A stretch of DNA of 64,000 bases from Escherichia coli phage vB_EcoS_Ace: the sequence record MT833283.1; one strand, written 5' to 3'. The notes under the pieces were generated by a model. That model had not been told where the DNA came from, made no database searches, and saw only the letters and a list, made by a program, of their open reading frames with translations. This document shows positions 18,749 through 36,922 of the stretch, one piece after another. Made by a program: the position numbers and the translations under genes. The first letter of the stretch is position 1. Every line of letters starts with the position of its first letter.

Positions 18749-19039
18749 TTAATCTTCTGGATTATCTTCCAGGAAGTTTTTGATTGCATCGTGCATAGTT
18801 TCCTTACGAAGCTGACGACCAATCAGAATGTGGTTGGCTTCCACACGACCATTCGGGAGACGATCTGCTAGAACTACTACAGGAACCTGACGAACGCCAA
18901 ATTTCTGCATAAGTTCTGTGTTATCAGTCTCTTTATGAACTTCTAGACTGTAGTCCTGTACTACTTTATCAAATACAGGCTCGAACATTTTGCACGGATT
19001 GCAGGTAGATCCCTTTAATAGATATACTAATTTACTCAT
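18749..19039 (-). CDS. thioredoxin/glutaredoxin-like protein (96 aa)
   Basis: CxxC motif (CNPC) near N-terminus in a thioredoxin-like context. Confidence 0.5.
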   Translation of the reverse strand: MSKLVYLLKGSTCNPCKMFEPVFDKVVQDYSLEVHKETDNTELMQKFGVRQVPVVVLADRLPNGRVEANHILIGRQLRKETMHDAIKNFLEDNPED

Positions 19040-19517: not shown

Positions 19518-19934
19518 TTAGTGTGCTTGATGTGGGAATCTCTTCCTAACTAAGTACATAGTTATTGGATATATTGAATACATAAGTATAGGGGAGAAAA
19601 GGGTGAAATAAGCCGTGACTCCCCCAGCTAACATCAGTGGTATCAATGCTAGAGTAAGGGCCATAAGAATCATACCGAATGAGACAGCCAGGGCTACTGT
19701 GATGCAGTTCTCTAACTCCATCCAAAGCCAACAATATTTCGTATTCCTCTGGCAGTTGCATTTGCAAACGCCGAATGTGCCCATAATTATATACTCTAGC
19801 CCATGAACGACTTTCTTTAATGTATCATTTTGGGTAACTAGTGCGACAACAGTGAGAATTATCATTAAGATGAAAACTACTAGGCTTATTTTCCATATTC
19901 CTAGTAATATCATGGTGAATAGTTCTGCAAACAT
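19518..19934 (-). CDS. multi-pass membrane protein (138 aa)
   Basis: ORF in track; several hydrophobic helices. Confidence 0.5.
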   Translation of the reverse strand: MFAELFTMILLGIWKISLVVFILMIILTVVALVTQNDTLKKVVHGLEYIIMGTFGVCKCNCQRNTKYCWLWMELENCITVALAVSFGMILMALTLALIPLMLAGGVTAYFTLFSPILMYSIYPITMYLVRKRFPHQAH

Positions 19935-20009: not shown

Positions 20010-20423
20010 TCAGACTAATTCTACGTGACCACCGTCGTAAGTACCACGATCGATCTCATCATGATAATCACCAGAACTATTCCAGTCGGCACCAAAACGA
20101 AGTTTGACACCAAGTTCCTTACCAGCTTGTTCAAAAGCCTTCTTAACAGCCCAAAATGCTTCCAGATCTTTCCAATCAATCTTACCATTAATATATGGTG
20201 CAAAATCGATAGCGTCTCCAGTTACATGCTTACTTTTGCTAGGGTCTTTCAAAAATGAAGTACCATTAGCAATGTTTTGGGCACTTTGTGCTACTGTACG
20301 AATACCTTGTACGATTGTGAAATCATATGGGGATAGTTCTAAAGCCCTACGAGCTACCTTTTGTAGCTCGGGCTTAACAGTTGCTAATTGTTTTTCGCTA
20401 TTTTTACCAAATTTAAAACTCAT
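20010..20423 (-). CDS. lys: endolysin (L-alanyl-D-glutamate peptidase-type, T5 Lys-like)
   Basis: 137-aa ORF matching T5 endolysin size and sequence as recalled; directly downstream of holin-like gene. Confidence 0.7.
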   Translation of the reverse strand: MSFKFGKNSEKQLATVKPELQKVARRALELSPYDFTIVQGIRTVAQSAQNIANGTSFLKDPSKSKHVTGDAIDFAPYINGKIDWKDLEAFWAVKKAFEQAGKELGVKLRFGADWNSSGDYHDEIDRGTYDGGHVELV

Positions 20424-21076
20424 ATAGATCTACCTAATGATCTTTGCTGCGGTGAGCAAAGCTTTGTTAAGTACTCCTTAAATTGTTCCGAGTCAGCTGT
20501 ATCTACGGGTTTATCCTTCCAGGCAATACCTATGTATCCAGCATAGATATTATTTAGGTTGAAATACGGACAAGTATAGACGTAATTAAAAGTAACGTTC
20601 TTAAACGCGGGTATATTTGACCCCATATATTTATTTACTTTTACACTTAAATCCGAAGCGTAGTTAAAGCCTTCCAGGTGACGTCTATAAAGTTCAGACG
20701 TCTTGTTTACTGCTTTATCGGCCAAGTCAGCCCTATCCAATTGCGCATTGCTTTCCCATGCAATAATGTTAGAATAATCGTTTATAGCATCGGGTTTATA
20801 CTTGACTACAAAAACAGCATCCGCACCCGTCTGAGAGAAAAGGACCATGCTCTTTTCTCGTGCTACATTAGGAAAGTTATCTATCCTTTGGGTTTGAACA
20901 TCCTGTAAAACCGCAGACGTGGAGAAAGTCTTTAAAAATGACATCACCTCGCTAGTGTTACTTACAAACAAGAAAATAATGACAGCAACTAAGATAGTTA
21001 GCAGACGTTTTAGTAGCGAAGCTGGATCTTTCGCTTCTTGGAGCAGTACCGTTAATAGTTGTAGAAACTTTTCCAC
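20420..21076 (-). CDS. hol: holin-like membrane protein (218 aa)
   Basis: N-terminal TM segment; ATGA overlap with endolysin gene; T5 holin-like size. Confidence 0.55.
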   Translation of the reverse strand: MEKFLQLLTVLLQEAKDPASLLKRLLTILVAVIIFLFVSNTSEVMSFLKTFSTSAVLQDVQTQRIDNFPNVAREKSMVLFSQTGADAVFVVKYKPDAINDYSNIIAWESNAQLDRADLADKAVNKTSELYRRHLEGFNYASDLSVKVNKYMGSNIPAFKNVTFNYVYTCPYFNLNNIYAGYIGIAWKDKPVDTADSEQFKEYLTKLCSPQQRSLGRSI

Positions 21077-21232
21077 TTGTAACCTCCTCTAACCATTACC
21101 ATTATACTAATTCTAGAGGAAAATTACAACGTGTTTTTAAAGATCACTTCTGGAGCATAATTTTTTGTCGTTGTCAAGAAGAATTTTAGGCAAAAGAAAA
21201 GCCAGAGTTGTTAAACTCTGGCTTAAAACTAC

Positions 21233-21832
21233 TTACACTTCTCCATGTTCTTCTGGATGCGGAGCTTGAGCTTTACTATATTGCTCTTTGCGATAATTCG
21301 CCAAAATTTCAATACGCTTATTGATTTCTTTGCTGTTGAGGTAGATATTCTTATTCTCTTTTACCATGTCCTCGATCTCGTCAATAGAGAAGAACGGGAA
21401 GTAAACATCGAGCATCATATCTTCTACAAACTGGTTGTAAGATTCATAGGCTTTCTTGATTTCTTGACCTTTCTCACAGAATCCGCCAGAGAACGTATGT
21501 CCCATAAGCGTAGCATGTGGATGTACAACCCAACCGTGGCAAGACAGGAAGATTGTGCAGTAAGCAGAAGCACTAGGACCGAGCAGGTGTCCAATAACCG
21601 TTCCACGACAGTTAGCGATTAGGTTAGATAGTTGTGCAGCAGTATCAACGTAACCACCAGGCCCATTAATCATCAGATTAATTTCATCATCTTCACCAGC
21701 CTGCATCAGTATCATGGATAGGTCACGATACTCATCCGGTGAGCCTAATTCTTCATCAAAGAAAAAGGTATATTCGTTAGATTGGCGAACAGTGTGAAAC
21801 AGGTTAGTCTTTTCTTCTTTCTTATTAGTCAT
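21233..21832 (-). CDS. ClpP-like serine protease (199 aa)
   Basis: ClpP-like core (NGPGGYV...LGPSASAY). Confidence 0.55.
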   Translation of the reverse strand: MTNKKEEKTNLFHTVRQSNEYTFFFDEELGSPDEYRDLSMILMQAGEDDEINLMINGPGGYVDTAAQLSNLIANCRGTVIGHLLGPSASAYCTIFLSCHGWVVHPHATLMGHTFSGGFCEKGQEIKKAYESYNQFVEDMMLDVYFPFFSIDEIEDMVKENKNIYLNSKEINKRIEILANYRKEQYSKAQAPHPEEHGEV

Positions 21833-21844: not shown

Positions 21845-22597
21845 TTATCCAACTAGTGGTTCTAGCTCTAAGTCACAGAAGTGGTACACATCGGTACGAA
21901 GTGCATCAAGTCCGTTGAAGGTATTCTCAAATTTATGAGAAATGTATTTTTCAGGAATACCGCTTTCAGACGGATGATCTGTCTCGATGCGATACTTATT
22001 AGTAATACCAGATTCAACCTTAATAAGCATGGAATCCATATCTAGAGTATTGGTTTCCATGATTAGCTCTCCCTCATTGGGGAAACGCACATCGGTAACG
22101 ATTGCGACGTCTGGGTAGTCTTTATCGATGGATTGCTCCAGAATTATGAGCCAAATGCGTTCATGCACCAGCTGCCTTCCTAACTCAGTACCTACAAGCT
22201 GTAGCATTTTTCTTGGGGAGATAAATACGCTATACAGCGCATCATCAGCTTGCCCAATTAACTGCTGAGGATCAAGGTATTTTCCTTCAAATATCGGCCA
22301 AACGTACGAGAAGTCCTCAAACTTATCGATACCATACTTAAACCATACGTCTCTAGCTAGCTCCAATTGAGATTGTGTGACTGTAAACCATTGGTCAATC
22401 TCTTTTCCCCTGCGCTCTCCCAGAAACTCTGGAGTTACCCCGAGGATTACGGATGCAAGTTCGTAAACGGGTTTAGCAAAACTGTAACGACGGGATAAAC
22501 ACGTTGGGAACGTGTCATTACACCAGTCAATCATTAATTCTGCAACGGTATCTTTTCCCGCACCAGCCTCACCATGTAAACCGACTAATACTGACAT
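21845..22597 (-). CDS. dnk: deoxynucleoside monophosphate kinase (P-loop)
   Basis: Walker A GEAGAGKDT at N-terminus; 250 aa as for T5 dNMP kinase as recalled. Confidence 0.6.
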   Translation of the reverse strand: MSVLVGLHGEAGAGKDTVAELMIDWCNDTFPTCLSRRYSFAKPVYELASVILGVTPEFLGERRGKEIDQWFTVTQSQLELARDVWFKYGIDKFEDFSYVWPIFEGKYLDPQQLIGQADDALYSVFISPRKMLQLVGTELGRQLVHERIWLIILEQSIDKDYPDVAIVTDVRFPNEGELIMETNTLDMDSMLIKVESGITNKYRIETDHPSESGIPEKYISHKFENTFNGLDALRTDVYHFCDLELEPLVG

Positions 22598-22950
22598 TAA
22601 TCTTTCCTATTTGTAATGGGTGGATAGTAAACTAAGCAACGTTTTTCTTGTAAATCTTGACGATAGAAGCAAACCATACCGGTCAGTCGTGAAATGTAAG
22701 AGTAAACTGCTTCCTCGCATTTTGCTTTTGCATTCCAATCTTTGTAAGGTACAACAACTACTACGCCATCTTCACCATTTGTAGCTAATTTCTTTTCGAA
22801 TTTGAAATCAAAACTACAAGGCTGAAGTCCTTTAGGCCAATCGACATGAGCTTGCTTTAACTCATGGGATGGCTCTGGTTTTATTTCTTCTGCACAGCCT
22901 GTGATTGTGATTGCGGCTGCGAGCAGTACTCCAAGTTTCCAGTTAAACAC
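22597..22950 (-). CDS. lipoprotein (117 aa); candidate o-spanin
   Basis: lipobox ITGC after signal peptide; start embedded in the 3' end of the upstream TM/coiled-coil ORF. Confidence 0.4.
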   Translation of the reverse strand: MFNWKLGVLLAAAITITGCAEEIKPEPSHELKQAHVDWPKGLQPCSFDFKFEKKLATNGEDGVVVVVPYKDWNAKAKCEEAVYSYISRLTGMVCFYRQDLQEKRCLVYYPPITNRKD

Positions 22951-23330
22951 GCTAATCTTTCCTCGAACTCTTTATTCTGCTTTTTAGCAATTAATGTTAC
23001 CAATCCAGGCTTTGCAGCGATAACATCTTGACGATTAAGAGCTTTATCTAACTGCTTAATCTTTTTGTCTAGATCTGCTTGCGAAATATTATTCATTGTG
23101 AAATACTGGTTCATTCGAGTCTCCCGAAGTTCACTTTCAGTTTTCACCTTATTAAGGGAAGTCTCTAGAGAGGAGATCTTTTTAGCCGCAACTGCAAGAT
23201 CACCTGCTAGAGTCTCAACCTTATTTACTAAGTGATAAGCACCGAATCCGATGCCTATCGCTAGACCTGCTCCCAGGATATACCACTTACCTTGCCATAT
23301 TCCTGAAAGAAGTTTTTGTATCAAATCCAT
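22881..23330 (-). CDS. N-terminal TM plus coiled-coil protein (149 aa); candidate i-spanin
   Basis: single N-terminal TM helix followed by coiled-coil-like periplasmic region. Confidence 0.4.
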   Translation of the reverse strand: MDLIQKLLSGIWQGKWYILGAGLAIGIGFGAYHLVNKVETLAGDLAVAAKKISSLETSLNKVKTESELRETRMNQYFTMNNISQADLDKKIKQLDKALNRQDVIAAKPGLVTLIAKKQNKEFEERLACLTGNLEYCSQPQSQSQAVQKK

Positions 23331-23985
23331 GCGCTGCTAACCTGTCTTTATCTGATACGGTAATCATATCAGGCTCACCAGTTCCTAGTACACCGAAGAT
23401 ATACTGTTCGAGAACTTGGTGTAAACGGTATAAGTTACTTTCAATTTCCTGCCATGGAATACCTGACTGGTGGAAACGAATGTTTGTCTGAATTACGAAG
23501 TTACGAACATCATCGTTATCGTTTTTCTTAATACCTTTCACATATGCAATTGGTACGCGCAGTTCAGATAAGATACGTTCTGCTTTAGGTTTTGCTTCAA
23601 CCAACATATCTCGCATGGTTTCACGAACATCACCACGATTCTTGTCTAGTAAGTAAGAACGGGCATATAATCCCATTTCTTCCATTTTATCAAATACAGC
23701 ATCGATGTTGAACGTTTTGAAACTGAATGCCGGATGCCAGCAGGACAGCTCATGTAACCAGTAAACTTCACCTGCAATAAACAGCGGATTTACTGAGTAT
23801 TCGAAATCACCACGGAAGGATAAGGAACCTTCACGAAACACCTGACGATTATGAACAATATTCTTTTCTACATCGTCGGTTACTTTTACTAGCAGCTCTT
23901 CAGTTTTACGCTCCCAGACACGATCTGGATCAAATAAACTATTCTGCAAATCGTATACATCATTGAACTTTGAAATGATTCTCAT
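23287..23985 (-). CDS. hypothetical protein (232 aa)
   Basis: ORF in track; promoter-like cassette 24017-24045 upstream. Confidence 0.55.
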   Translation of the reverse strand: MRIISKFNDVYDLQNSLFDPDRVWERKTEELLVKVTDDVEKNIVHNRQVFREGSLSFRGDFEYSVNPLFIAGEVYWLHELSCWHPAFSFKTFNIDAVFDKMEEMGLYARSYLLDKNRGDVRETMRDMLVEAKPKAERILSELRVPIAYVKGIKKNDNDDVRNFVIQTNIRFHQSGIPWQEIESNLYRLHQVLEQYIFGVLGTGEPDMITVSDKDRLAAHGFDTKTSFRNMAR

Positions 23986-28000: not shown

Positions 28001-28073
28001 CTCTGTTTAGTAGTTAGTAGTGGATTTGAACCACTGTAGTCACTCCATATGAAGGAGGTGCATAACCACTCTG
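28001..28073 (-). tRNA. tRNA-Met or Ile-lysidine (anticodon CAU)
   Basis: cloverleaf by hand; acceptor AGTTAGT/ACTAACT; T-loop TTCAAAT; anticodon loop TTCATAT; CCA not encoded. Confidence 0.6.
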
Positions 28074-28079
28074 CCAACT

Positions 28080-28155
28080 AACTATAATTTGGTACTCCGA
28101 CTTGGGATCGAACCAAGATTTGACGATTATCGGTCGCCTGTTCTAACCTGTTGAA
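28080..28155 (-). tRNA. tRNA-Ile (GAU)
   Basis: cloverleaf by hand; anticodon loop CCGATAA; T-loop TTCGATC; CCA encoded. Confidence 0.65.
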
Positions 28156-28166
28156 CTATCAGAGCA

Positions 28167-28460
28167 TTACATCATTTCATCTAAGTAAGAAGTATACTGG
28201 TATTTAGCTTCACCAGTCTTATCTACTTCTACCTCAGTTCGTGGTACTTTACGAACTAGACCGTGAATCATCTTATAGTTAATAGACTTAGATGGTTCGT
28301 GATCTTTTGGAAAGACTTGTTTAACCGTTACTACTTTGAAGCCTTCACGAGGTGTTAATACAACAACTTGATCACCTTCTTTAATTTTCCAGGACTCAGG
28401 AAATTCATAAGTGTAGCGTTGACCACCCGTTTGGAATACGACAGAAAGATAACGTTTCAT
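28167..28460 (-). CDS. hypothetical protein (97 aa)
   Basis: ORF in track; promoter cassette upstream. Confidence 0.5.
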   Translation of the reverse strand: MKRYLSVVFQTGGQRYTYEFPESWKIKEGDQVVVLTPREGFKVVTVKQVFPKDHEPSKSINYKMIHGLVRKVPRTEVEVDKTGEAKYQYTSYLDEMM

Positions 28461-28490
28461 TTGGTTTCCCTCTCATTAATTTATATAAAT

Positions 28491-28519
28491 ATTATAACAA
28501 GAAATAAGAGAGAAGGCAA
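28491..28519 (-). promoter_or_regulatory. sigma70 promoter (TATAAT / TTGCCT)
   Basis: minus strand; 17-bp spacer. Confidence 0.55.
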
Positions 28520-28534
28520 ATGAATTTTTAAATT

Positions 28535-28609
28535 TGGTGCTCCCACCAGGAATCGAACCCGGTTCAGATGCTTACAAGGCAACTGCATCGCCAGCAATGC
28601 TTTAGGAGC
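28535..28609 (-). tRNA. tRNA-Thr (UGU)
   Basis: cloverleaf by hand; anticodon loop CTTGTAA; one mismatch in anticodon stem. Confidence 0.55.
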
Positions 28610-28776
28610 AATAAACCCATTATTTCAACGGGATTTCTTTTTCATATACAGGAGACTTATATGATATTACTGTCATAGCCAACTGCTGTAGAAATTCGAA
28701 TGAGAGTTTTAAACGCTCTTCTCCTAACCCAACCTCAACGCACTTCATTCGTTTATCTACTTTTAGCTTTAGATTA

Positions 28777-28998
28777 TCAGCCATCTTTGGATTCTCTTTG
28801 CTCAGCTATTGCTAGCCAGTCTGGTAAAAGAAACTTAGTACGAAATTCTTCATATGTTTCTTCTGGATGAAAGCTATAGCCTTGCTTTTCATCATTTAAT
28901 AAAACCGAACCATCTTCTTGCTCATAAGCTCTATATGTTTCACCAATAATTAAAACTCGTCTATTGGGGTTTTTATTACGAAACTCAAAAACGTCCAT
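28777..28998 (-). CDS. hypothetical protein (73 aa)
   Basis: ORF in track, between tRNA genes. Confidence 0.4.
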   Translation of the reverse strand: MDVFEFRNKNPNRRVLIIGETYRAYEQEDGSVLLNDEKQGYSFHPEETYEEFRTKFLLPDWLAIAEQRESKDG

Positions 28999-29014
28999 AA
29001 CGTTTCCTTATATT

Positions 29015-29089
29015 TGGTGCGGGATACGAGAGTCGAACTCGTGTCTACTGGTTGGAAGCCAGTTATTCTAGCCACTGAACTAATCACGC
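29015..29089 (-). tRNA. tRNA-Gly (UCC)
   Basis: cloverleaf by hand; anticodon arm ACTGG-CTTCCAA-CCAGT. Confidence 0.6.
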
Positions 29090-29095
29090 ATAAAT

Positions 29096-29171
29096 TGGCT
29101 GGAGAAGGAGGAATCGAACCTACCATTAACGGAGTCAAAGGCCGTTGTGCTAACCGTTACACTACTCTCCA
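29096..29171 (-). tRNA. tRNA-Gln (UUG)
   Basis: cloverleaf by hand; U1-A72, G73; anticodon loop CTTTGAC. Confidence 0.55.
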
Positions 29172-29177
29172 ATTGTT

Positions 29178-29253
29178 TGGCTGGGATGCCACGGATCGAA
29201 CGTGGAACCTTCGGAGTCAGAGGCCGACGATCTGCCAATTGATCTACATCCCA
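29178..29253 (-). tRNA. tRNA-Gln (CUG)
   Basis: cloverleaf by hand; U1-A72, G73; anticodon loop CTCTGAC. Confidence 0.55.
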
Positions 29254-29260
29254 ATAATTT

Positions 29261-29461
29261 TTATTCTACAGGAACCGTGGCAATTGGATCTGGTTCTTCT
29301 AGACGTTTACCATTATGGTCAACACGAATAATACCACAACCTTCACAGATTACAACAGCACCATAGCCTTCTTTAACTTCGGCTTCTGTAATCAGACCAG
29401 AAAGATCACCAGTATCTTTGCCCCACATATCGATAGAGCATTCTTTGCAGAAATCAGCCAT
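29261..29461 (-). CDS. Cys-rich small protein (66 aa)
   Basis: CKEC...CEGC pairs. Confidence 0.4.
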   Translation of the reverse strand: MADFCKECSIDMWGKDTGDLSGLITEAEVKEGYGAVVICEGCGIIRVDHNGKRLEEPDPIATVPVE

Positions 29462-29485
29462 ATTTTAGTTCCTGTATAAGTTAAT

Positions 29486-29560
29486 TGGTGCATCCTCAGG
29501 GAATCGAACCCCGATCGTAAAGTTCGTAGCTTTACATTCTTTCCGTTGAAATAAGGACGC
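29486..29560 (-). tRNA. tRNA-Arg (ACG)
   Basis: cloverleaf by hand; anticodon arm GTAAAG-CTACGAA-CTTTAC. Confidence 0.6.
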
Positions 29561-29565
29561 ATATT

Positions 29566-29642
29566 TGGGGTGGCTAGTGGAATTCGAATCCACATAGGCC
29601 TGATTCACAATCAGGATCATTAACCAATTATGATATAGCCAC
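29566..29642 (-). tRNA. tRNA-His (GUG)
   Basis: cloverleaf by hand; anticodon arm CCTGA-TTGTGAA-TCAGG; discriminator C. Confidence 0.6.
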
Positions 29643-30007
29643 AATTGAAAACTCGCAGGGTTAGCGAAACCATCCTCAAATAGCATTTTCTAGAATACTA
29701 ATCAAGTTATCTCCTATTGCACGCAGCTCAAGACGAGTACGAATTTTCAATTGTGGCGGCTCTCCGAAACTCTTCTACTCTAGCCTTAGCAGCTTACTCC
29801 CGAACGCATGTCGGGAAAGTCTTACTAAGAGCATCAAATAGCACCGTTACTCTTTGAGCCATTGAATATCAAGAAGCAGAAGGACTTGAACCTTCACGAG
29901 ATAGACCATTTATCTCAGCCTCGTTTTCGGGTATCTTATGAGGAGTGGATGTTCCCCTTACGCCCTTTAGGAAGCCCCGTCTACCGATTCCGGCATACTT
30001 CAAGATT

Positions 30008-30097
30008 TGGCAGAAGATAATGGAGTCGAACCATCACCATATCACTACAGCGGGCCGGTTTTCAAGACCGGTTACGTACCACTACGTCCTATCTTCT
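30008..30097 (-). tRNA. tRNA-Ser (UGA), class II
   Basis: long variable arm; anticodon arm CCGGT-CTTGAAA-ACCGG; acceptor AGAAGAT/ATCTTCT. Confidence 0.6.
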
Positions 30098-30452
30098 ATT
30101 GTTCGTATATTACAAAGTTTACAGATTCAGAGTAATAACCATTACTAGAACCATGCCATTTAACGGTTACACAGCCTTTAGCTGTGGCAAACTTATACCA
30201 TGTATGGGTTACTGAATCCCAATCTTCTGTAGCGTGTGTGATTACTTCCTCTGCTTCTATGATTGGATAACCTAAAAGGTCATGTAAATCACCAATAATA
30301 TCATCTATATGAACATCTTCACAGCAGTCCTGCTCATGATAAAACTTATAGTTCTTACCATCAGTACAAATGAAGATAAGAGTATCCTGGTCTTGGCATA
30401 CACTAGTAAAAATTTTGCCAAGCATTTCATTATAGATTGTCACTTCTGACAT
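30096..30452 (-). CDS. hypothetical protein (118 aa)
   Basis: ORF in track. Confidence 0.45.
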   Translation of the reverse strand: MSEVTIYNEMLGKIFTSVCQDQDTLIFICTDGKNYKFYHEQDCCEDVHIDDIIGDLHDLLGYPIIEAEEVITHATEDWDSVTHTWYKFATAKGCVTVKWHGSSNGYYSESVNFVIYEQ

Positions 30453-30474
30453 ATTAGTTTCCTAGTAAGTTGTT

Positions 30475-30566
30475 TGGCGGAAGAAGAGAGATTCGAACTC
30501 TCAAGCCTGCTTTCACAAGTCAGCCACTTTCCAAGCGGTTTTCGTCACCTATCGATTTGCTCTTCC
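30475..30566 (-). tRNA. class II tRNA, probably tRNA-Ser (GGA)
   Basis: acceptor and T-arm clear; anticodon arm assignment (loop TTGGAAA) tentative; atypical D-arm. Confidence 0.4.
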
Positions 30567-30745
30567 GTAGATCTCAGGATTAAATCATAAACTTCATTAG
30601 CGGATACTGGAAGTATGAGATTATACATCTTTTGGTCATACCTCTGACCATACTCTATAAACACATACTCTTTAGTTAATGTATTAACAGCTAACCAGAT
30701 ATCAGTTATAGGAGTTATAGGAGTTTTCATCATGAGTTGATCCAA
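30545..30745 (-). CDS. hypothetical protein (66 aa)
   Basis: ORF in track. Confidence 0.4.
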   Translation of the reverse strand: MDQLMMKTPITPITDIWLAVNTLTKEYVFIEYGQRYDQKMYNLILPVSANEVYDLILRSTEEQIDR

Positions 30746-30749
30746 TGTT

Positions 30750-30830
30750 TGGTAGGGATGGAGGGACTCGAACCCACACCCGAAGACTAGAACCTAAATC
30801 TAGCGCGTCTGCCAATTTCGCCACATCCCC
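30750..30830 (-). tRNA. tRNA-Leu (UAG) with short UUCG-type variable hairpin
   Basis: anticodon arm CTAGA-TTTAGGT-TCTAG; A73; 81 nt. Confidence 0.5.
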
Positions 30831-30837
30831 ATTTGTT

Positions 30838-30913
30838 TGGTGGAGTCACTCAGAATTGAACTGAGTTCCACTGCTTGCAAGGCAGTAAGTTTAACCAAAT
30901 AACCTATGACCCC
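30838..30913 (-). tRNA. tRNA-Ala (UGC)
   Basis: G3-U70 wobble; anticodon loop CTTGCAA. Confidence 0.6.
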
Positions 30914-30918
30914 GAATT

Positions 30919-30997
30919 TGGTGGAGAATAAGAGATTCGAACTCTTCTGATATCCTCGGTGCAAGCGAGGTGTCCACTCCAAGCAGACCCATTCCCC
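30919..30997 (-). tRNA. second tRNA-Ala (UGC)-like
   Basis: G3-U70; anticodon arm CCTCG-CTTGCAC-CGAGG; 7-nt variable loop. Confidence 0.45.
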
Positions 30998-31006
30998 AAA
31001 ATTTAT

Positions 31007-31270
31007 TTATTCTCTATACATATCGAGAACAGTTGCTACAATCTGAGCTTCTAGCCTAGCAATATCTTTATTCACTATATCAGATTCTACTACTAAGTGA
31101 TTATATATTGCTTCAGTTTTAGCAAGATCTACATCAGATAGTTTATTAAGACTATTATAATACTTAGCATTATTGCAACGTTTCTTCGTATCGGAAACTC
31201 GTTTATGGAGTGTTCTTTGTTGATAACGTTGCGACATTAGTTTCTTAGCCATATCTTTAAGATCAAACAT
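31007..31270 (-). CDS. hypothetical protein (87 aa)
   Basis: ORF in track; fed by promoter 31513-31541 through a ~235-nt leader. Confidence 0.45.
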   Translation of the reverse strand: MFDLKDMAKKLMSQRYQQRTLHKRVSDTKKRCNNAKYYNSLNKLSDVDLAKTEAIYNHLVVESDIVNKDIARLEAQIVATVLDMYRE

Positions 31271-31512
31271 AGATATTCCTTCTAGTTTACTAAGGCTATT
31301 AGCTCGGTGTGCGTATTACCCTCAGACATTAGCCAGTAGAGTATAACCGCTCTTCACAAACCCGATACACTATTCAGTTGCCACTGAATCTAGTGGACTA
31401 ATCTAGAACTTCTCCCAAGTCGTAGGGATCGTGCTTTTGGCAGCCAGCCCTAGGTCGAGCTAATACCTTAGTGAACTTTGATGAGGATTTCTCCTCATCA
31501 ATTTATATAAAT

Positions 31513-31541
31513 ATTATAACAAGAAATTAAGCATCAAGCAA
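31513..31541 (-). promoter_or_regulatory. sigma70 promoter (TATAAT / TTGCTT)
   Basis: minus strand; 17-bp spacer; overlaps 3' end of ORF 31534..31893. Confidence 0.55.
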
Positions 31542-31893
31542 GTACATTTTTAGCAATTTCTTGTAGTTCCTTAACGTCGCTAACGAAAAGGTAATCAGAG
31601 CTTCCAGAGTGCATACTCTGCATAACCACACCATCCTCTGGTGCATCTTCCTTCAAAGTAAGTCCTAACCAGAACTCGGCAAAACTAGGTGTTACCTCAC
31701 CTTGACTTGCCTTGAACACATCACCTTCTGTGATCTCTTGACCAGTAGAGAGTCCCATGTATGGTACGTTCAGATCAATATCTTTGTAGAATTCAGCTAG
31801 ATCTTGTTCGAAGTCCCAACCTTTAGAGATAGCGAACTCCATTGTTACATGACCGAAATAGCCTTGAACCTTGCTTGATAATTGCATTTGCAA
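31534..31893 (-). CDS. hypothetical protein (119 aa)
   Basis: ORF in track. Confidence 0.5.
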   Translation of the reverse strand: MQMQLSSKVQGYFGHVTMEFAISKGWDFEQDLAEFYKDIDLNVPYMGLSTGQEITEGDVFKASQGEVTPSFAEFWLGLTLKEDAPEDGVVMQSMHSGSSDYLFVSDVKELQEIAKNVLA

Positions 31894-31911
31894 TTCCTTA
31901 TTTTGAGTTAA

Positions 31912-31985
31912 TTGGTACTCGGTGATAGAATCGAACTATCGCAACCGCCGTGTAAAGACGGGGTTCTACCATTAAACTAACCGAG
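31912..31985 (-). tRNA. tRNA-Val (UAC)
   Basis: cloverleaf by hand; anticodon loop TTTACAC. Confidence 0.6.
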
Positions 31986-31989
31986 CAAT

Positions 31990-32067
31990 TTGGTGGATTG
32001 CCTGGGATTCGAACCCAGAACTGACGGATTAAAGGTCCGCTACTCTTATCCAGTTGAGCTAGCAATC
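31990..32067 (-). tRNA. tRNA-Lys (UUU)
   Basis: anticodon loop CCTTTAA (C at position 33). Confidence 0.55.
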
Positions 32068-32700
32068 CAATTTTTCTACTAATAATTTAAAAGCATCTAG
32101 TACAGGTACTTCAAACCACTCTCCAGATACTCTATAATCTTTAAGAAGATTATGTAATTCTTTCTCTGTACGTCTTTTATCCGACGAAAATCTGAAATGG
32201 TATAGCTTGTAGTCTCTATTAGGTGAATAAGTTTGATAACTTGCTAACCTCTCATTCACATCTATAGTCATACCTATTTTATACATGCCTGGCCATGCTG
32301 GATTACCAATTACATATATAAAACCTTCCGTTATAGGTATTTTATGCTCCCTTTTATACTTTAAGAGATTTAAGGCTGCCATTCGATAACAGAATCTAAA
32401 CTCTGAAGTTTTTAACTTACCTTCTTTACCCGAAATTTCGTTATATTTGCTCATATAAGCTCTTATGAGCTTATCATCTATAATGAAGTTATCAGGAAGG
32501 TTTAAGGCAGCTAAAACTTTATTAATTAGCATAGACTTCCTTAATAGAGTATCCTTAATAGAGTAGACTTTCAAGTAAGGATGATTGATTCCTAATTCCG
32601 CCATCACTTCGTTTTTATCTTTACCGTAATGGGCTAGTGGATACTTCTTACGATCTTTGCTAGATCGTAGATCACTTACCTTTAAACGAAATAATTTCAT
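32059..32700 (-). CDS. T5orf172-domain protein (GIY-YIG-like), putative homing endonuclease
   Basis: GFIYVIGN...YKIGMT motif; paralog of ORF 35847..36377; embedded in tRNA cluster. Confidence 0.6.
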   Translation of the reverse strand: MKLFRLKVSDLRSSKDRKKYPLAHYGKDKNEVMAELGINHPYLKVYSIKDTLLRKSMLINKVLAALNLPDNFIIDDKLIRAYMSKYNEISGKEGKLKTSEFRFCYRMAALNLLKYKREHKIPITEGFIYVIGNPAWPGMYKIGMTIDVNERLASYQTYSPNRDYKLYHFRFSSDKRRTEKELHNLLKDYRVSGEWFEVPVLDAFKLLVEKLDC

Positions 32701-32721
32701 TTCGAAATCCTTCTATTAAAT

Positions 32722-32799
32722 TGGAAGCGGGTGTAGGAATCGAACCTACCTCTTTCTAGCTTATGAGACTAGCGATCTCTACCAAAGATCTAACCCGCA
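32722..32799 (-). tRNA. tRNA-Met (CAU), possibly initiator-like
   Basis: anticodon loop CTCATAA; U1-U72 mismatch at top of acceptor stem. Confidence 0.55.
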
Positions 32800-32805
32800 A
32801 TTGTT

Positions 32806-32882
32806 TGGTCTCCAATGAAGGACTCGAACCTTCAACCCCACCGCCCCAAACGGTGTACTCTAGCCAATTGAGCTAATCGGAG
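32806..32882 (-). tRNA. tRNA-Pro (UGG)
   Basis: anticodon arm CACCG-TTTGGGG-CGGTG. Confidence 0.6.
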
Positions 32883-32891
32883 AATATTATT

Positions 32892-33089
32892 TTATTGTGG
32901 TGGAATATTAATATTCCGTCCATCTATGCAGTAAATGGTACTAGGAATTGTAGAGTGTATACTGAAGTTTTGTATTTTACTCTCTCCACCACAGAAATTT
33001 TTTGCAAATTCATACTCCTTGTTAATGGTTGAATCAAATTTAAAGCAACCAGTGAGTAAGAATACAGATAGTAACATAACTTTTTTCAT
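32892..33089 (-). CDS. small lipoprotein (65 aa)
   Basis: signal peptide with lipobox LTGC. Confidence 0.45.
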   Translation of the reverse strand: MKKVMLLSVFLLTGCFKFDSTINKEYEFAKNFCGGESKIQNFSIHSTIPSTIYCIDGRNINIPPQ

Positions 33090-33121
33090 TTTGCTTTCCT
33101 TCTCAACACTTTATAAGATAT

Positions 33122-33150
33122 ATTATACAGAGAATTAAGCAAAATAGCAA
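33122..33150 (-). promoter_or_regulatory. sigma70 promoter (TATAAT / TTGCTA)
   Basis: minus strand; 17-bp spacer. Confidence 0.6.
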
Positions 33151-33408
33151 ATGAATTTTTAATAAATTTACTTATTGCGTAGGCCACCTGGAGGGTTCAA
33201 GCCCCACGTCTGACAAAGAAGTTTGCGAGACTTCTCTTAAACGCCAGAATAGACCCGCCGATCTATCGGAACCTACTCAATAAGTAAACTTTCGTTTACC
33301 TACACCTACCTGGTCGGGAGGATTTTCAGCTACTAGAACCGGCCGGAAACTCATCGCCTTGTTTACCTTGTAGTCCCACTATAAGTGACGCGACCTACAA
33401 AGATTTTG

Positions 33409-33479
33409 TGCGGTCGGAGGGAATCGAACCCTCAACTTCTGGTTGGCAACCAAAAATTATACCTTTTAACTACGAACGC
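33409..33479 (-). tRNA. tRNA-Gly (GCC)
   Basis: anticodon arm TTTGG-TTGCCAA-CCAGA; one acceptor mismatch; CCA not encoded. Confidence 0.5.
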
Positions 33480-33692
33480 ATAATGAGTCAATCTAGGTAG
33501 GACTTGAACCTACTATCACTTGTGCGGATTTACGAGAACCATTCTTTCACTCGAATCGAACGAGCTTCTACCCTCGGCAAGCTGGTGTCCCCTCTCCACC
33601 ACGCTAGAATGATAATTAATGCCTGCTCCTTTGAATCAAGAAGTCCACCCCGGACTTTGGGTCTTTGCAGTACATCACGCTGCTCTGATGTT

Positions 33693-33769
33693 TGGTACAC
33701 CCACTAGGACTTGAACCTAGAACCTACCGCTTAAGAGGCGGTAGCTCTAACCAATTGAGCTATGGATGT
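33693..33769 (-). tRNA. tRNA-Lys (CUU)
   Basis: anticodon arm ACCGC-CTCTTAA-GCGGT. Confidence 0.6.
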
Positions 33770-33775
33770 ATAATT

Positions 33776-33850
33776 TGGCGGTACTAAGGGTAATCGAAAC
33801 CCTACCTCTCCCGTGACAGGGGAGTATCCTAACCGTTAGACTATAGTACC
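33776..33850 (-). tRNA. tRNA-Asp (GUC)
   Basis: anticodon arm CTCCC-CTGTCAC-GGGAG. Confidence 0.65.
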
Positions 33851-34371
33851 TTTAACTTTTTAAGTTCTTTAGGATTGCCTCCTAAAGAAGTGTATCTTTT
33901 ACGCAACCCATTATCTGAATAACTTAACTTTCTCCCTGCACCTGACCAGCCTAGCTCTCTTACTGTAACCTCGATTATTTCTTTAGTTATAGAGATATCT
34001 TTTGGTTTATGTGAAGAGCACTCCTGACATTTTTCAGCTTTTAAAGAAATAGCTTTACCACAATCCTTACAACAATTATCATGGTTTAGTTTACTAAATC
34101 CTTTATCTTTTAAAGTCTTTTCTAGATGCTGCTCTTTTGTGAGCACTTGTAAGTTATTAAGACCCCAATAAGTAATGTCTGTGTTAATATGGTCAACTTC
34201 TAGTTCAGAGTCTAGACTTGGTAATTTCTTAAATGCACATGCTAAAATCCTATGTACACCAGTATTTCTCTGTTGACCATTTTTATGGAGACGTATAGAT
34301 AAGTATCCGTAATTACTGGTTATTGGGGTTAGTATTTTGTTTGATTTGATACTAAATACTAACCCATCCAA
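33841..34371 (-). CDS. HNH homing endonuclease (176 aa)
   Basis: HNH motif (VHRILACAF...EVDHIN...N...H); within tRNA cluster, as for T5 F-Tfl endonucleases as recalled. Confidence 0.65.
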   Translation of the reverse strand: MDGLVFSIKSNKILTPITSNYGYLSIRLHKNGQQRNTGVHRILACAFKKLPSLDSELEVDHINTDITYWGLNNLQVLTKEQHLEKTLKDKGFSKLNHDNCCKDCGKAISLKAEKCQECSSHKPKDISITKEIIEVTVRELGWSGAGRKLSYSDNGLRKRYTSLGGNPKELKKLKVL

Positions 34372-34425
34372 ACTTACTAAGTACTTCTCAAACCCTGGAA
34401 TGGGTAAGGATATTCAGTGCATAAT

Positions 34426-34611
34426 TTACTCAGTTTTGAGTTTTTCGATAGCTTCCTCAACCTCTTTTAGAGCTTCACGACGCTCTACTTGACCTTGAAG
34501 TTCTTCAAGAAGTTCAGCTTTCAGAGCCTTAATAATATTACCACGAACCTTAATATTATTAATCAGATTATCACGATCAGCTTCTAGTCGAGCAATTGCA
34601 CGAGTTGTCAT
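34426..34611 (-). CDS. coiled-coil protein (61 aa)
   Basis: ORF in track. Confidence 0.35.
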   Translation of the reverse strand: MTTRAIARLEADRDNLINNIKVRGNIIKALKAELLEELQGQVERREALKEVEEAIEKLKTE

Positions 34612-34714
34612 ATCTATTTCCTCAGTTGTTAATGAAAAATGGTATCTGTGACTGAATTCGATATCAGCAATGATAGCTGGTTGGCTACCGGTTTACTTAA
34701 CTCTACACAGAATA

Positions 34715-34797
34715 TGGCGGGCCGTGTAGGATTCGAACCTACGTTGTCTTTCGACATGGATTAACAGTCCACCGCCAAACCGCTTGGCTAACGACCC
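34715..34797 (-). tRNA. class II-like tRNA with anticodon GUU (Asn)
   Basis: 3-bp D-stem and 13-nt variable hairpin (Tyr-like scaffold) but anticodon loop CTGTTAA and discriminator G. Confidence 0.45.
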
Positions 34798-34804
34798 TAA
34801 AATT

Positions 34805-34880
34805 TGGACGACCGCATGAGATTCGAACTCACATAAGGAGGTTTTGCAGGCCTCCGCCTAAGCCATTCAGCCAACGGTCG
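34805..34880 (-). tRNA. tRNA-Cys (GCA)
   Basis: anticodon loop CTGCAAA. Confidence 0.55.
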
Positions 34881-35058
34881 ATTTATCTTGCTTTTCGAGA
34901 TTAGTAAACTCTAGATCTATAGAATGTCCTATAGATCTAGCATAATAGCCATCTCCAGCATCATAGCCTGACTTACCACACTCACACATCTTAAACTCTC
35001 TATAACGAGTGAAAATATGTTCAGAACCACAACACTTAAATTTAACTAACATTTTCAT
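34867..35058 (-). CDS. Cys-containing small protein (63 aa)
   Basis: ORF in track; CC...CEC motif. Confidence 0.4.
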   Translation of the reverse strand: MKMLVKFKCCGSEHIFTRYREFKMCECGKSGYDAGDGYYARSIGHSIDLEFTNLEKQDKSTVG

Positions 35059-35297
35059 TTAACACGCTCCGGTAAATCTTCGAGTTTATATTGAGTAGCC
35101 ACATTAGCAGCATCTAGTAACAAACCCATATGTTTAAGAATCCTAGTGATAGCCTCGCCTTCTGCTTCTTCTACAAAAGTGCGTAGTTGAATGAAGTCAA
35201 TACCACCATCCATACCAGAGAAAATGTTAAGTAAGCGAAGCATTACCAGCTTACGTTCTTTCAGTTCTTGTTCTATCATGTTGCTTCTCCAGTTCAA
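35055..35297 (-). CDS. hypothetical protein (80 aa)
   Basis: ORF in track; promoter cassette upstream. Confidence 0.5.
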   Translation of the reverse strand: MNWRSNMIEQELKERKLVMLRLLNIFSGMDGGIDFIQLRTFVEEAEGEAITRILKHMGLLLDAANVATQYKLEDLPERVK

Positions 35298-35308
35298 TTT
35301 ATGTAATA

Positions 35309-35337
35309 ATTATACAGAACTTTAAGGATTTAAGCAA
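35309..35337 (-). promoter_or_regulatory. sigma70 promoter (TATAAT / TTGCTT)
   Basis: minus strand; 17-bp spacer. Confidence 0.6.
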
Positions 35338-35668
35338 CTACATTTTTCAGAAATTTGATGCCTTTCTTACACTTCTTATACCACCACGTCTTAGAGTTTT
35401 GTCGATTATGAACGCTTGAGATCTTCGCCTCATTAAAGTGCTTCAAAAGCATATAATCAGCCCCTAATTGCTCAAGTGGAATGTGATCTCCACTAGAATC
35501 ATAAACATAAGGCCGTTGATTAGCTCTGTAGTGATATACCTTATTAATCCGGCGTTTAAGCAAAGGACTAGTACAGTATATAAAGAAGTTTTTAGGATGC
35601 ATCAGCATCTCCTTCAAAATTGGTGCACCCCGTTGGTAACGATCCAACCTCTCAAGCTCTTCAGGCAA
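35330..35668 (-). CDS. hypothetical protein (112 aa)
   Basis: ORF in track. Confidence 0.45.
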   Translation of the reverse strand: MPEELERLDRYQRGAPILKEMLMHPKNFFIYCTSPLLKRRINKVYHYRANQRPYVYDSSGDHIPLEQLGADYMLLKHFNEAKISSVHNRQNSKTWWYKKCKKGIKFLKNVVA

Positions 35669-35786
35669 GCGCTAATCCATCTCAGCTAAAGGTGCAAATA
35701 TTGGCAAACCTACTAGGACTCGAACCTAGACCGTACGGTTTTGGAGACCGACATGCTGTCCAGTAACACTCTAGGAATGCAGAAAT

Positions 35787-35861
35787 TGGTATTCTCACAC
35801 GGATTCGAACCGAGATTTCTGGAGTGAAGTTCCAGTGACCTAACCATTAGTCGATGAGAAC
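35787..35861 (-). tRNA. tRNA-Glu (UUC)
   Basis: anticodon arm CTGGA-ACTTCAC-TCCAG; one T-stem mismatch. Confidence 0.5.
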
Positions 35862-36377: not shown

Positions 36378-36398
36378 TTTTAGACCTTAGTTAAATTT

Positions 36399-36486
36399 GG
36401 TGGGCGTTAATGGAGTCGAACCACTCGAGTCGCAATGACCAGGGATTTACAATCCCCTCCGCTACCACTTACGGAATAAACGCCCA
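36399..36486 (-). tRNA. tRNA-Tyr (GUA), class II
   Basis: long variable arm; anticodon arm GGGGA-TTGTAAA-TCCCT; A73. Confidence 0.6.
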
Positions 36487-36892: not shown

Positions 36893-36922
36893 TCGTTAAC
36901 TCCTTCATCAATTTATATAACT

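What the first reader, a model, noticed from the sequence alone, without database searches (positions are those of the whole stretch)
22597..23330. Candidate embedded spanin pair located ~1.5 kb away from holin/endolysin
ORF 22881..23330 encodes an N-terminal TM helix followed by a coiled-coil-like region (i-spanin-like). ORF 22597..22950 starts inside its 3' end and encodes a lipoprotein with lipobox ITGC (o-spanin-like, although longer and less Pro-rich than typical Rz1). This architecture is characteristic of Rz/Rz1-type outer-membrane disruption genes.
Basis: inference. Interest (0 to 1): 0.45.

Follow-up and report, generated by a model that had tools for sequence, protein, structure and literature searches.

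The report
Known T5-type overlapped spanin gene pair

Summary
Both ORFs exist exactly as described: 22881..23330(-) encodes 149 aa and 22597..22950(-) encodes 117 aa. They share 70 nt in different frames, so the arrangement is "overlapped", not "embedded". The window is a T5-like phage (Demerecviridae, Epseptimavirus), 99% identical in DNA to Salmonella phages bux, Stitch and Seabear. Stitch and Seabear annotate the same coordinates as i-spanin and o-spanin. The proteins match PHROG 739 (2.6e-37) and PHROG 812 (4.2e-30), the same families that T4 PseT.3 and PseT.2 match. They are 90-91% identical to T5.045 and T5.044. Kongari et al. 2018 list a "T5 family" of overlapped spanins with a 70-bp overlap that includes Stitch and EPS7. 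There is no detectable similarity to lambda Rz/Rz1. The two C-terminal cysteines that are essential in T4 PseT.2 are conserved here as C94 and C105. T5-like phages add a second cysteine pair in the o-spanin and a CX7C motif at the i-spanin C-terminus. Both genes show purifying selection, and the shared stretch is unusually conserved. The pair sits in a transcription unit with dNMP kinase, 1.5 kb upstream of a separately promoted holin-endolysin unit. Verdict: real, correctly interpreted, already known.

The parts
22881..23330 (-). i-spanin gene (149 aa). It encodes an N-terminal TMD (residues about 17-35), a helical periplasmic domain with a heptad-periodic first helix (38-72), the conserved AAKPGLV motif, and a C-terminal C128-X7-C136 motif.
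   Evidence: The ORF is listed. It matches phrog_739 at 2.6e-37, and T4 PseT.3 matches the same PHROG at 1.3e-37. BLASTP against T4 PseT.3 gives 5e-06. It is 90% identical to T5.045 and 100% identical to the annotated bux i-spanin. Hydropathy is and heptad analysis. The low-confidence AF2 model is all-helical, H2-79, H84-106, H108-129.
22597..22950 (-). o-spanin gene (117 aa precursor, 99 aa mature lipoprotein). GTG start, lipobox ITGC with Cys19, Ala at +2, and periplasmic Cys45, Cys78, Cys94 and Cys105.
   Evidence: The ORF is listed. It matches phrog_812 at 4.2e-30, and T4 PseT.2 matches the same PHROG at 5e-42. BLASTP against T4 PseT.2 gives 2e-07, with T4 C87/C98 aligned to C94/C105. It is 91% identical to T5.044 and identical to the annotated Stitch o-spanin. 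The low-confidence AF2 secondary structure is linker, beta, alpha, beta hairpin.
22881..22950 (-). 70-nt dual-coding overlap. It encodes i-spanin residues C128-K149 plus the stop, and in the +1-shifted frame o-spanin residues 1-23 (signal peptide, lipobox and first four mature residues). The TG of the o-spanin start codon is the first two bases of the i-spanin Cys128 codon.
   Evidence: The codon map is. Only 3 of 70 nt differ from T5, against 93 of 640 in the flanking spanin sequence (Fisher P = 0.015). The same 70-bp overlap is reported for T5 in PMC6139136.
22951..22965 (-). Shine-Dalgarno-like GAGGAAAG upstream of the o-spanin GTG start, lying inside the i-spanin coding sequence.
   Evidence: The sequence is. 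Stitch and Seabear annotate an RBS at the equivalent position.
21199..21224 (-). Terminator-like hairpin ending the transcription unit that carries the spanin genes (232-aa ORF, i-spanin, o-spanin, dnk, Clp-like protease).
   Evidence: An 11-bp stem followed by a T-run. A terminator is annotated at the equivalent place in T5 and Stitch.
21101..21129 (-). Promoter-like site (TTGTAA-17-TATAAT) directly upstream of the holin gene. It starts a separate holin-endolysin unit.
   Evidence: 10 of 12 matches. A promoter is annotated at the equivalent place in T5.
20420..21076 (-). T4 T-type holin, a functional partner in lysis.
   Evidence: PF11031 at 1e-114; phrog_860 holin.
20010..20423 (-). M15-family endolysin (T5-type L-alanyl-D-glutamate peptidase), a functional partner in lysis.
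   Evidence: PF13539 at 8.6e-06; phrog_465 endolysin at 4.8e-54; T5 lys lies at the syntenic position.

Best explanation
The two ORFs are the two-component spanin of a T5-like phage, orthologues of T5.045/T5.044 and distant homologues of T4 PseT.3/PseT.2.

Targeting (inferred from sequence signals): the 149-aa protein inserts into the inner membrane through its N-terminal TMD and projects a mostly helical domain into the periplasm. The 117-aa protein is exported, lipidated at Cys19 and sorted by Lol to the inner leaflet of the outer membrane, because Ala rather than Asp follows the Cys.

Action (inferred by homology with the experimentally studied T4 and lambda systems): the C-terminal regions of the two proteins bind across the periplasm. 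The complexes are held inactive by the peptidoglycan meshwork. Once the T-type holin releases the M15 endolysin and the wall is degraded, the complexes oligomerise and collapse, fusing inner and outer membranes and removing the last barrier to virion release.

Disulfides: the o-spanin keeps the two C-terminal cysteines (C94, C105) that are essential in T4 PseT.2, where an intramolecular disulfide is thought to isomerise into two intermolecular links. T5-like phages add a second o-spanin Cys pair (C45, C78) and an i-spanin C-terminal CX7C. These probably give extra disulfide stabilisation or homodimer links; this is inference.

Expression: the pair is transcribed with dNMP kinase and a Clp-like protease, not with holin and endolysin. 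The o-spanin is translated from an internal GTG preceded by its own SD inside the i-spanin gene.
For: Sequence and annotation evidence:
- DNA is 99.1% identical to Salmonella phage bux and 98.6% to Stitch.
- Stitch and Seabear annotate the same ORFs as i-spanin and o-spanin.
- T5.045 and T5.044 are 90% and 91% identical and are annotated as Rz-like spanins with notes of similarity to T4 PseT proteins.
- The proteins match phrog_739 and phrog_812 at 2.6e-37 and 4.2e-30. T4 PseT.3 and PseT.2 match the same two PHROGs.
- Direct BLASTP to T4 PseT.2 and PseT.3 gives 2e-07 and 5e-06.
- The TMD, lipobox ITGC and +2 Ala are present, with heptad periodicity in helix 1 only.

Conservation across relatives:
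- The lipobox Cys, the H-x-x-WP motif, the C(F/Y)YR...E..C motif and AAKPGLV are invariant or nearly invariant across window, T5, Klebsiella, Pectobacterium and Enterobacter phages and T4.
- The order i-spanin, o-spanin, dnk, protease, holin, endolysin is conserved across Demerecviridae.
- dN/dS against T5 is 0.07-0.23, and the overlap is hyper-conserved.

Literature (PMC6139136):
- It lists a T5 spanin family (T5, EPS7, Stitch, SPC35 and others) that is overlapped by 70 bp.
- It reports that T4 pseT.3/pseT.2 complement lambda Rz-am/Rz1-am.
- It reports that PseT.2 C87 and C98 are essential.
Against: No experiment on a T5-type spanin was found in the searchable literature, so function rests on homology to T4 (about 30% identity) and on targeting signals. 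Pfam and NCBIfam have no model that matches either protein. No solved structure exists for a relative. The single-sequence AF2 models are low-confidence, with pLDDT 62 and 54, so the secondary-structure statements are only indicative. The i-spanin hydrophobic segment is Gly/Ala-rich and its 19-residue hydropathy of 1.55 falls just under the classic 1.6 threshold.
Confidence: 0.93

Rival explanations
1. The lipoprotein is a superinfection-exclusion or receptor-masking lipoprotein (in the manner of T5 Llp or lambdoid Cor), and the upstream TM protein is an unrelated membrane protein. The overlap would be mere gene packing.
For: T5-like phages are known, from general knowledge, to encode a small exclusion lipoprotein (Llp). 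The pair is transcribed with early-type metabolic genes rather than with holin and endolysin.
Against: Both proteins match the same PHROG families as T4 PseT.3 and PseT.2, and those T4 proteins were shown to complement lambda spanin mutants (PMC6139136). The essential T4 Cys pair is conserved. The two genes co-occur, adjacent or overlapping, in every Demerecviridae locus examined. T4 also keeps its spanins away from its holin and endolysin genes t and e (Fig. 8 legend of PMC6139136).
Confidence: 0.03
2. The pair is a true PseT.3/PseT.2 homologue but has been re-purposed, or is dispensable, in T5-like phages. Outer-membrane disruption would then be carried out by another factor.
For: No direct experiment on T5 spanins was found. 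The extra cysteines and the C-terminal i-spanin extension differ from T4.
Against: Strong purifying selection acts on both genes. The pair is conserved across two subfamilies of Demerecviridae that infect five host genera. The Cys motif is retained even when a homing endonuclease splits the pair in Shivani. No other candidate was examined that would replace it. The ORF next to the endolysin is a four-TMD protein according to the T5.039 annotation. The window was not systematically screened for other lipoproteins.
Confidence: 0.04
3. One or both ORFs are chance open frames and are not expressed.
For: None beyond the weak SD (AGG) in front of the i-spanin ATG and the non-ATG start of the o-spanin.
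Against: PHROG E-values are 1e-30 to 1e-37. dN/dS is 0.07-0.23. Homologues are found in more than 500 phage genomes down to 26% identity.
Confidence: 0

Closest known systems
T5 spanin family (T5.045 i-spanin / T5.044 o-spanin; Kongari et al. 2018, PMC6139136), including Stitch, EPS7 and SPC35
   Same: The proteins are 90% and 91% identical to T5.045 and T5.044. The o-spanin is 100% identical to that of Stitch, and the i-spanin is 100% identical to that of bux. The 70-nt overlap, the flanking dnk gene and the position about 1.5 kb upstream of holin-endolysin are all the same.
   Different: The o-spanin starts with GTG here and ATG in T5. T5 has the HNH homing endonuclease hegF between the upstream 232-aa ORF and the i-spanin. 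Here that gene is absent and the two ORFs overlap by 44 nt. The first 10 or so residues of the i-spanin differ.
T4 PseT.3 / PseT.2 two-component spanin
   Same: Both proteins match the same PHROG families as the T4 pair (739 and 812), with significant pairwise BLASTP. Shared features are the KPGLV motif, the H-x-x-WP motif and the essential C-terminal Cys pair. The o-spanin is long, Pro-poor and predicted to be structured. Only the first i-spanin helix is coiled-coil-like (PMC6139136). The genes lie away from holin and endolysin and next to nucleotide-metabolism genes.
   Different: Identity is only about 29-32%. T4 is scored as 'separated' in PMC6139136, whereas here the genes overlap by 70 nt. 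The T4 i-spanin has no periplasmic Cys, while this one has C128 and C136 in a C-terminal extension of about 30 aa. The o-spanin here has an additional Cys pair, C45 and C78.
Lambda Rz / Rz1
   Same: It is the same functional class: a type II inner-membrane protein plus an outer-membrane lipoprotein, with the lipoprotein gene in a different frame overlapping the i-spanin gene. The i-spanin carries periplasmic cysteines.
   Different: There is no detectable sequence similarity. The PHROGs differ, 13 and 3198, and no Pfam family matches at E<=0.01. Lambda is fully embedded, with Rz1 inside Rz, whereas here the genes are overlapped. Rz1 is 60 aa and, from general knowledge, Pro-rich and unstructured. 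This o-spanin is 117 aa with 7 Pro. Lambda's spanin genes are contiguous with S and R, whereas here they lie in another transcription unit.
P2 LysB / LysC (prototype of the 'overlapped' architecture)
   Same: It has the same genetic architecture class, in which the o-spanin gene starts inside the 3' end of the i-spanin gene and extends beyond it (definition in PMC6139136).
   Different: In the spanin census the two fall into separate families. No sequence comparison was run here.

Membership tests
Two-component spanin (functional class, as defined in PMC6139136) | i-spanin with a single N-terminal transmembrane domain and a periplasmic C-terminal domain | tested here: met
   The only hydrophobic segment is at residues 17-35, and the rest of the protein is hydrophilic and helical. 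The N-in/C-out topology itself is inferred.
Two-component spanin (functional class, as defined in PMC6139136) | o-spanin with an outer-membrane lipoprotein signal: signal peptide, lipobox, and no Lol-avoidance Asp at +2 | tested here: met
   MFNWKLGVLLAAAITITG|CAE has lipobox ITGC, Cys19 and +2 Ala. The Cys is invariant in 7 homologues.
Two-component spanin (functional class, as defined in PMC6139136) | i- and o-spanin genes adjacent, embedded or overlapped on the same strand | tested here: met
   Same strand, with a 70-nt overlap in different frames.
Two-component spanin (functional class, as defined in PMC6139136) | At least one periplasmic cysteine available for homotypic intermolecular disulfide bonds | tested here: met
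   There are 2 Cys in the i-spanin periplasmic domain and 4 in the mature o-spanin beyond the lipidated Cys. The bonding pattern was not tested.
Two-component spanin (functional class, as defined in PMC6139136) | Required for outer-membrane disruption; complements lambda Rz-am/Rz1-am | not testable with these tools
   No experiment on T5-type spanins was found. It has been shown for the T4 homologues (PMC6139136).
T5 spanin family (grouping rule of PMC6139136: at least 40% identity over at least 40% of length) | At least 40% identity over at least 40% of length to T5 i- and o-spanins | tested here: met
   90% identity over 139 of 149 aa, and 91% over 117 of 117 aa.
T5 spanin family (grouping rule of PMC6139136: at least 40% identity over at least 40% of length) | Overlapped architecture with a 70-bp shared region (majority of members) | tested here: met
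   22881..22950 is 70 nt. The paper states that the T5 spanins overlap by 70 bp.
T4 PseT.3/PseT.2 superfamily (phrog_739 / phrog_812) | Significant profile match to the families that contain T4 PseT.3 and PseT.2 | tested here: met
   The window proteins score 2.6e-37 and 4.2e-30. The T4 proteins score 1.3e-37 and 5e-42 against the same PHROGs.
T4 PseT.3/PseT.2 superfamily (phrog_739 / phrog_812) | Two conserved C-terminal cysteines in the o-spanin (T4 C87 and C98, both essential) | tested here: met
   C94 and C105 align with T4 C87 and C98 and are invariant in all 7 sequences aligned.
T4 PseT.3/PseT.2 superfamily (phrog_739 / phrog_812) | Cys-free i-spanin and separated gene architecture. These are typical of the T4 family in the narrow sense, not of the superfamily. 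| tested here: not met
   The i-spanin has C128 and C136, and the genes overlap by 70 nt. The pair is therefore filed under the T5 family, not the T4 family in the narrow sense.
Lambda Rz / Rz1 (phrog_13 / phrog_3198) | Sequence or profile similarity to Rz and Rz1 | tested here: not met
   No Pfam family matches at E<=0.01. BLASTP gives E 4.6 and 0.038, the latter confined to the signal peptide. The lambda proteins map to different PHROGs.
Lambda Rz / Rz1 (phrog_13 / phrog_3198) | Embedded architecture, with the o-spanin gene wholly inside the i-spanin gene | tested here: not met
   The o-spanin gene extends 284 nt beyond the i-spanin stop. In lambda, Rz1 lies inside Rz.

The most novel reading that the evidence does not exclude
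T5-type spanins may use a hybrid covalent-linkage scheme. The i-spanin C-terminal CX7C is absent from T4 PseT.3, is conserved across Demerecviridae, and is retained in Shivani even where the gene overlap has been destroyed. It could form lambda-Rz-like homodimer disulfides. The o-spanin combines the T4-type isomerising Cys pair (C94, C105) with an extra structural disulfide (C45-C78). Because the CX7C motif is encoded by the same nucleotides as the o-spanin start codon and signal peptide, the overlap may be evolutionarily locked by two independent functional constraints.
Probability: 0.3. Interest if true: 0.25.

Novelty: already known. Interest (0 to 1): 0.07.

Why it matters
It matters little as a discovery. 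The gene pair is annotated in near-identical genomes and listed in the published spanin census.

Its practical value lies in annotation quality. Among the sampled near-identical T5-like records, many leave the o-spanin ORF unannotated or label it 'hypothetical', 'i-spanin' or even 'endonuclease'. In one Klebsiella phage it is truncated to 51 aa. A correct call here would allow consistent annotation.

The conserved extra cysteines are a modest lead for researchers studying how disulfide links drive spanin-mediated membrane fusion.

Tried and rejected
- Pfam and NCBIfam scans found no spanin family for either protein. The only hits were sub-threshold FtsL-like and HetF-like coiled-coil noise for the i-spanin.
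- A PDB sequence search found no relative with a solved structure; all hits had E > 0.1.
- BLASTP against lambda Rz and Rz1 showed no homology. The 0.038 hit covers only the signal peptide and lipobox.
- Single-sequence AlphaFold2 models of both proteins were low-confidence, with pLDDT 62 and 54. I used them only as a secondary-structure hint and did not send them to fold search.
- I deliberately did not spend the large protein-database searches (search for homologous proteins, the search of protein representatives) or the metagenome scans, because identity and family were already settled by annotated phage genomes and the literature.
- The literature search for direct experiments on T5 spanins returned only the 2018 census.
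- I considered and rejected the chance-ORF reading, the Llp-like exclusion lipoprotein reading and the 'embedded' architecture.
Full report
**1. Observation**

The ORF list and the sequence confirm both ORFs on the minus strand.
- ORF 22881..23330 starts with ATG and encodes 149 aa.
- ORF 22597..22950 starts with GTG and encodes 117 aa.
- They share 22881..22950, 70 nt, in different reading frames.

The 149-aa protein has a single hydrophobic segment at residues 17-35 (YILGAGLAIGIGFGAYHLV), followed by a Lys/Leu/Ala/Gln/Glu-rich domain. The 117-aa protein starts MFNWKLGVLLAAAITITG|CAE. This gives a basic n-region, a hydrophobic core, lipobox ITGC with Cys19, and Ala at +2, so there is no Lol-avoidance signal.

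A heptad test shows a/d hydrophobic occupancy of 0.70 for residues 38-72, against 0.42 in shuffles (P about 0.002). Residues 84-126 show no such signal.

The o-spanin stop lies 1521 nt from the holin start. The holin (PF11031, 1e-114) and the M15 endolysin are at 20420..21076 and 20010..20423.

The lipoprotein gene runs 284 nt past the i-spanin stop, which is the "overlapped" class as defined in PMC6139136.

**2. What the window is**

The 2.3-kb stretch around the finding is 99.1% identical to Salmonella phage bux. It is 98.6-98.8% identical to Stitch, Seabear and several Escherichia phages. All are Demerecviridae, Markadamsvirinae, Epseptimavirus, that is, T5-like.

Stitch and Seabear were annotated by the Center for Phage Technology. 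They carry CDSs of exactly the same lengths and the same overlap, labelled i-spanin and o-spanin, each with an annotated RBS.

In T5 itself the orthologues are T5.045 and T5.044. They are 90% and 91% identical to the window proteins. They are annotated as Rz-like spanins, with notes recording similarity to T4 PseT proteins.

**3. Family assignment**

- PHROGs places the two proteins in phrog_739 (2.6e-37) and phrog_812 (4.2e-30), both named "Rz-like spanin".
- T4 PseT.3 and PseT.2 fall in the same two PHROGs (1.3e-37 and 5e-42). Lambda Rz and Rz1 fall in phrog_13 and phrog_3198.
- Direct BLASTP gives 2e-07 against PseT.2 and 5e-06 against PseT.3.
- BLASTP gives nothing meaningful against lambda Rz or Rz1.
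- Pfam and NCBIfam have no matching model, and no relative has a solved structure.

Kongari et al. 2018 (PMC6139136) list a "T5" i-spanin family and a "T5" o-spanin family. Members include T5, EPS7, Stitch, SPC35, AKFV33, FFH1, DT57C and My1, plus the separated variants phiR201 and Shivani. The paper states that the T5 spanins overlap by 70 bp. The finding is therefore an already catalogued gene pair.

**4. Evidence that both frames are real genes**

Against T5, dN/dS is 0.07-0.11 for the o-spanin and 0.22-0.23 for the i-spanin.

The 70-nt shared stretch has 3 differences from T5. The remaining aligned spanin sequence has 93 differences in 640 nt (Fisher P = 0.015). This is expected if both frames are constrained.

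tblastn finds homologues in 554 phage records for the o-spanin and 540 for the i-spanin. They infect Salmonella, Escherichia, Klebsiella, Proteus, Pectobacterium, Providencia and Aeromonas. The weakest o-spanin hit is an annotated pseT.2 of a T4-like Edwardsiella phage.

The gene order i-spanin, o-spanin, dNMP kinase, Clp-like protease, holin, endolysin is kept in T5, a Klebsiella phage, Pectobacterium phage DU_PP_V (a different subfamily) and Enterobacter phage KKP_3711.

**5. Anatomy and conserved features**

I aligned seven sequences of each protein: window, Stitch, T5, Klebsiella, Pectobacterium, Enterobacter and T4.

- **o-spanin, invariant in all seven:** the lipobox G-C, an H-x-x-W-P motif, a P-Y/F, and a C-terminal C-(F/Y/T)-Y-R...E-x-x-C motif. 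The two cysteines of that motif (C94 and C105 here) align with T4 C87 and C98. The 2018 paper showed both to be essential for lysis.
- **o-spanin, Demerecviridae only:** all Demerecviridae sequences have a further Cys pair (C45, C78) that T4 lacks.
- **i-spanin:** it shares the (A/H)KPGLV motif with T4. In Demerecviridae it carries a C-terminal extension with ERL(A/S)C-x7-C (C128, C136). T4 PseT.3 has no periplasmic cysteine.
- **Dual coding:** the CX7C motif is encoded inside the overlap. The TG of the o-spanin start codon is the first two bases of the Cys128 codon, and Cys136 overlaps Leu9/Leu10 of the signal peptide.
- **Shivani:** a homing-endonuclease-like gene separates the two spanin genes, yet the i-spanin still ends ...ERLACLSGSLEYC.... 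The motif is therefore kept for its own sake, not as a by-product of the overlap.

The single-sequence AlphaFold2 models are low-confidence, with pLDDT 62 and 54. They suggest an almost entirely helical i-spanin with a disordered tail. For the o-spanin they suggest a disordered linker followed by beta strands, a helix and a beta hairpin. This agrees with the beta-alpha-beta organisation predicted for T4 PseT.2 in PMC6139136.

**6. Expression context**

A terminator-like hairpin lies at 21224..21199 (-). A promoter-like site, TTGTAA-17-TATAAT, lies at 21129..21101 (-). Both sit between the Clp-like protease gene and the holin gene. T5 has an annotated terminator and promoter at the same place, and a promoter upstream of T5.047.

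The spanin genes therefore most likely belong to a transcription unit with the 232-aa ORF, dnk and the protease gene. Holin and endolysin form their own unit.

The o-spanin has a GAGGAAAG Shine-Dalgarno-like sequence upstream of its GTG. Its stop shares a base with the dnk start (TAATG), which suggests translational coupling.

Spanins made before holin triggering are harmless in the accepted model, because the peptidoglycan restrains them. T4 likewise keeps pseT.3/pseT.2 away from t and e (PMC6139136).

**7. Mechanism**

- **Shown here:** the targeting signals, homology to T4 PseT.3/PseT.2, conservation of the essential Cys pair, purifying selection and synteny.
- **Shown elsewhere for homologues:** T4 pseT.3/pseT.2 complement lambda Rz-am/Rz1-am, and C87 and C98 are required (PMC6139136).
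- **Inferred:** the window's proteins form an inner-membrane-to-outer-membrane bridging complex. It is activated after endolysin action and fuses the two membranes. The extra Cys pairs add disulfide stabilisation or i-spanin homodimer links.

No direct experiment on a T5-type spanin was found.

**8. Rivals**

- A chance ORF is excluded by the conservation data.
- An Llp-like exclusion lipoprotein is very unlikely, given the PHROG membership, the conserved essential cysteines and the obligatory pairing with the TM protein.
- A re-purposed or dispensable spanin homologue cannot be formally excluded without genetics, but nothing supports it.

**9. Novelty and score**

The finding is already known. 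The proteins are identical to annotated spanins of Stitch and bux, and the family is described in the literature, including its 70-bp overlap.

The only mildly new observations are the Demerecviridae-specific cysteines and the coincidence of the i-spanin CX7C motif with the o-spanin start and signal peptide. Interest is low.

Noticed in passing
window 28010..41856 (- strand): There is a cluster of 29 tRNA genes, all on the minus strand, covering most amino acids. This is the T5-type tRNA region.
   Followed up: no
window 23287..23330; L004 (T5) 4246..4743: The i-spanin start overlaps the upstream 232-aa ORF (23287..23985, phrog_4243, unknown function) by 44 nt. In T5 an HNH homing endonuclease gene (hegF) sits between these two genes. 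It is absent here and in Stitch.
   Followed up: partly
L008 (Salmonella phage Shivani) 7383..8828: In Shivani a 232-aa ORF annotated only as 'hypothetical protein' splits the i- and o-spanin genes, giving the 'separated' variant. [quoted passage not shown] The i-spanin keeps its C-terminal CX7C, and the o-spanin acquires a different N-terminus (MHKIKLG...).
   Followed up: partly
window 21199..21224 and 21101..21129 (- strand): A terminator-like hairpin followed by a near-consensus promoter-like site lies between the Clp-like protease gene and the holin gene. This splits the lysis functions into two transcription units. The same is annotated in T5.
   Followed up: partly
window 21233..21832 (- strand): A Clp-protease-like gene (PF00574 at 3.4e-07; phrog_1827 'ATP-dependent protease' at 5e-89) lies between the spanin/dnk genes and the holin. 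Its role in a T5-like phage is unclear.
   Followed up: no
window 22597: The o-spanin stop and the dNMP kinase start share one base (TAATG), which suggests translational coupling of dnk to the o-spanin.
   Followed up: no
public records matched: Annotation of the o-spanin ORF is inconsistent across near-identical T5-like genomes. It is unannotated in 1-29, STG2 and T5_ev212. Only an 'i-spanin' feature lies under the match in bux, BD13, misterkot and smaug. The feature under the match is 'endonuclease' in Shigella phage SHSML-45. It is truncated to 51 aa in Klebsiella phage vB_Kpn_K7_rec7, where the full 109-aa lipoprotein ORF starts at L005:3001.
   Followed up: partly
window 18749..19039 (- strand): A 96-aa thioredoxin-like ORF carries a C-N-P-C motif and is annotated as thioredoxin in Stitch and Seabear. 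No link to the cysteine-rich spanins was tested.
   Followed up: no
window 19518..19934 (- strand): A 138-aa multi-TM ORF (phrog_5944, unknown function) lies just downstream of the endolysin. The T5.039 annotation describes it as having 'four transmembrane domains'. It might be a lysis-associated membrane protein such as an antiholin or a lysis-inhibition factor.
   Followed up: no
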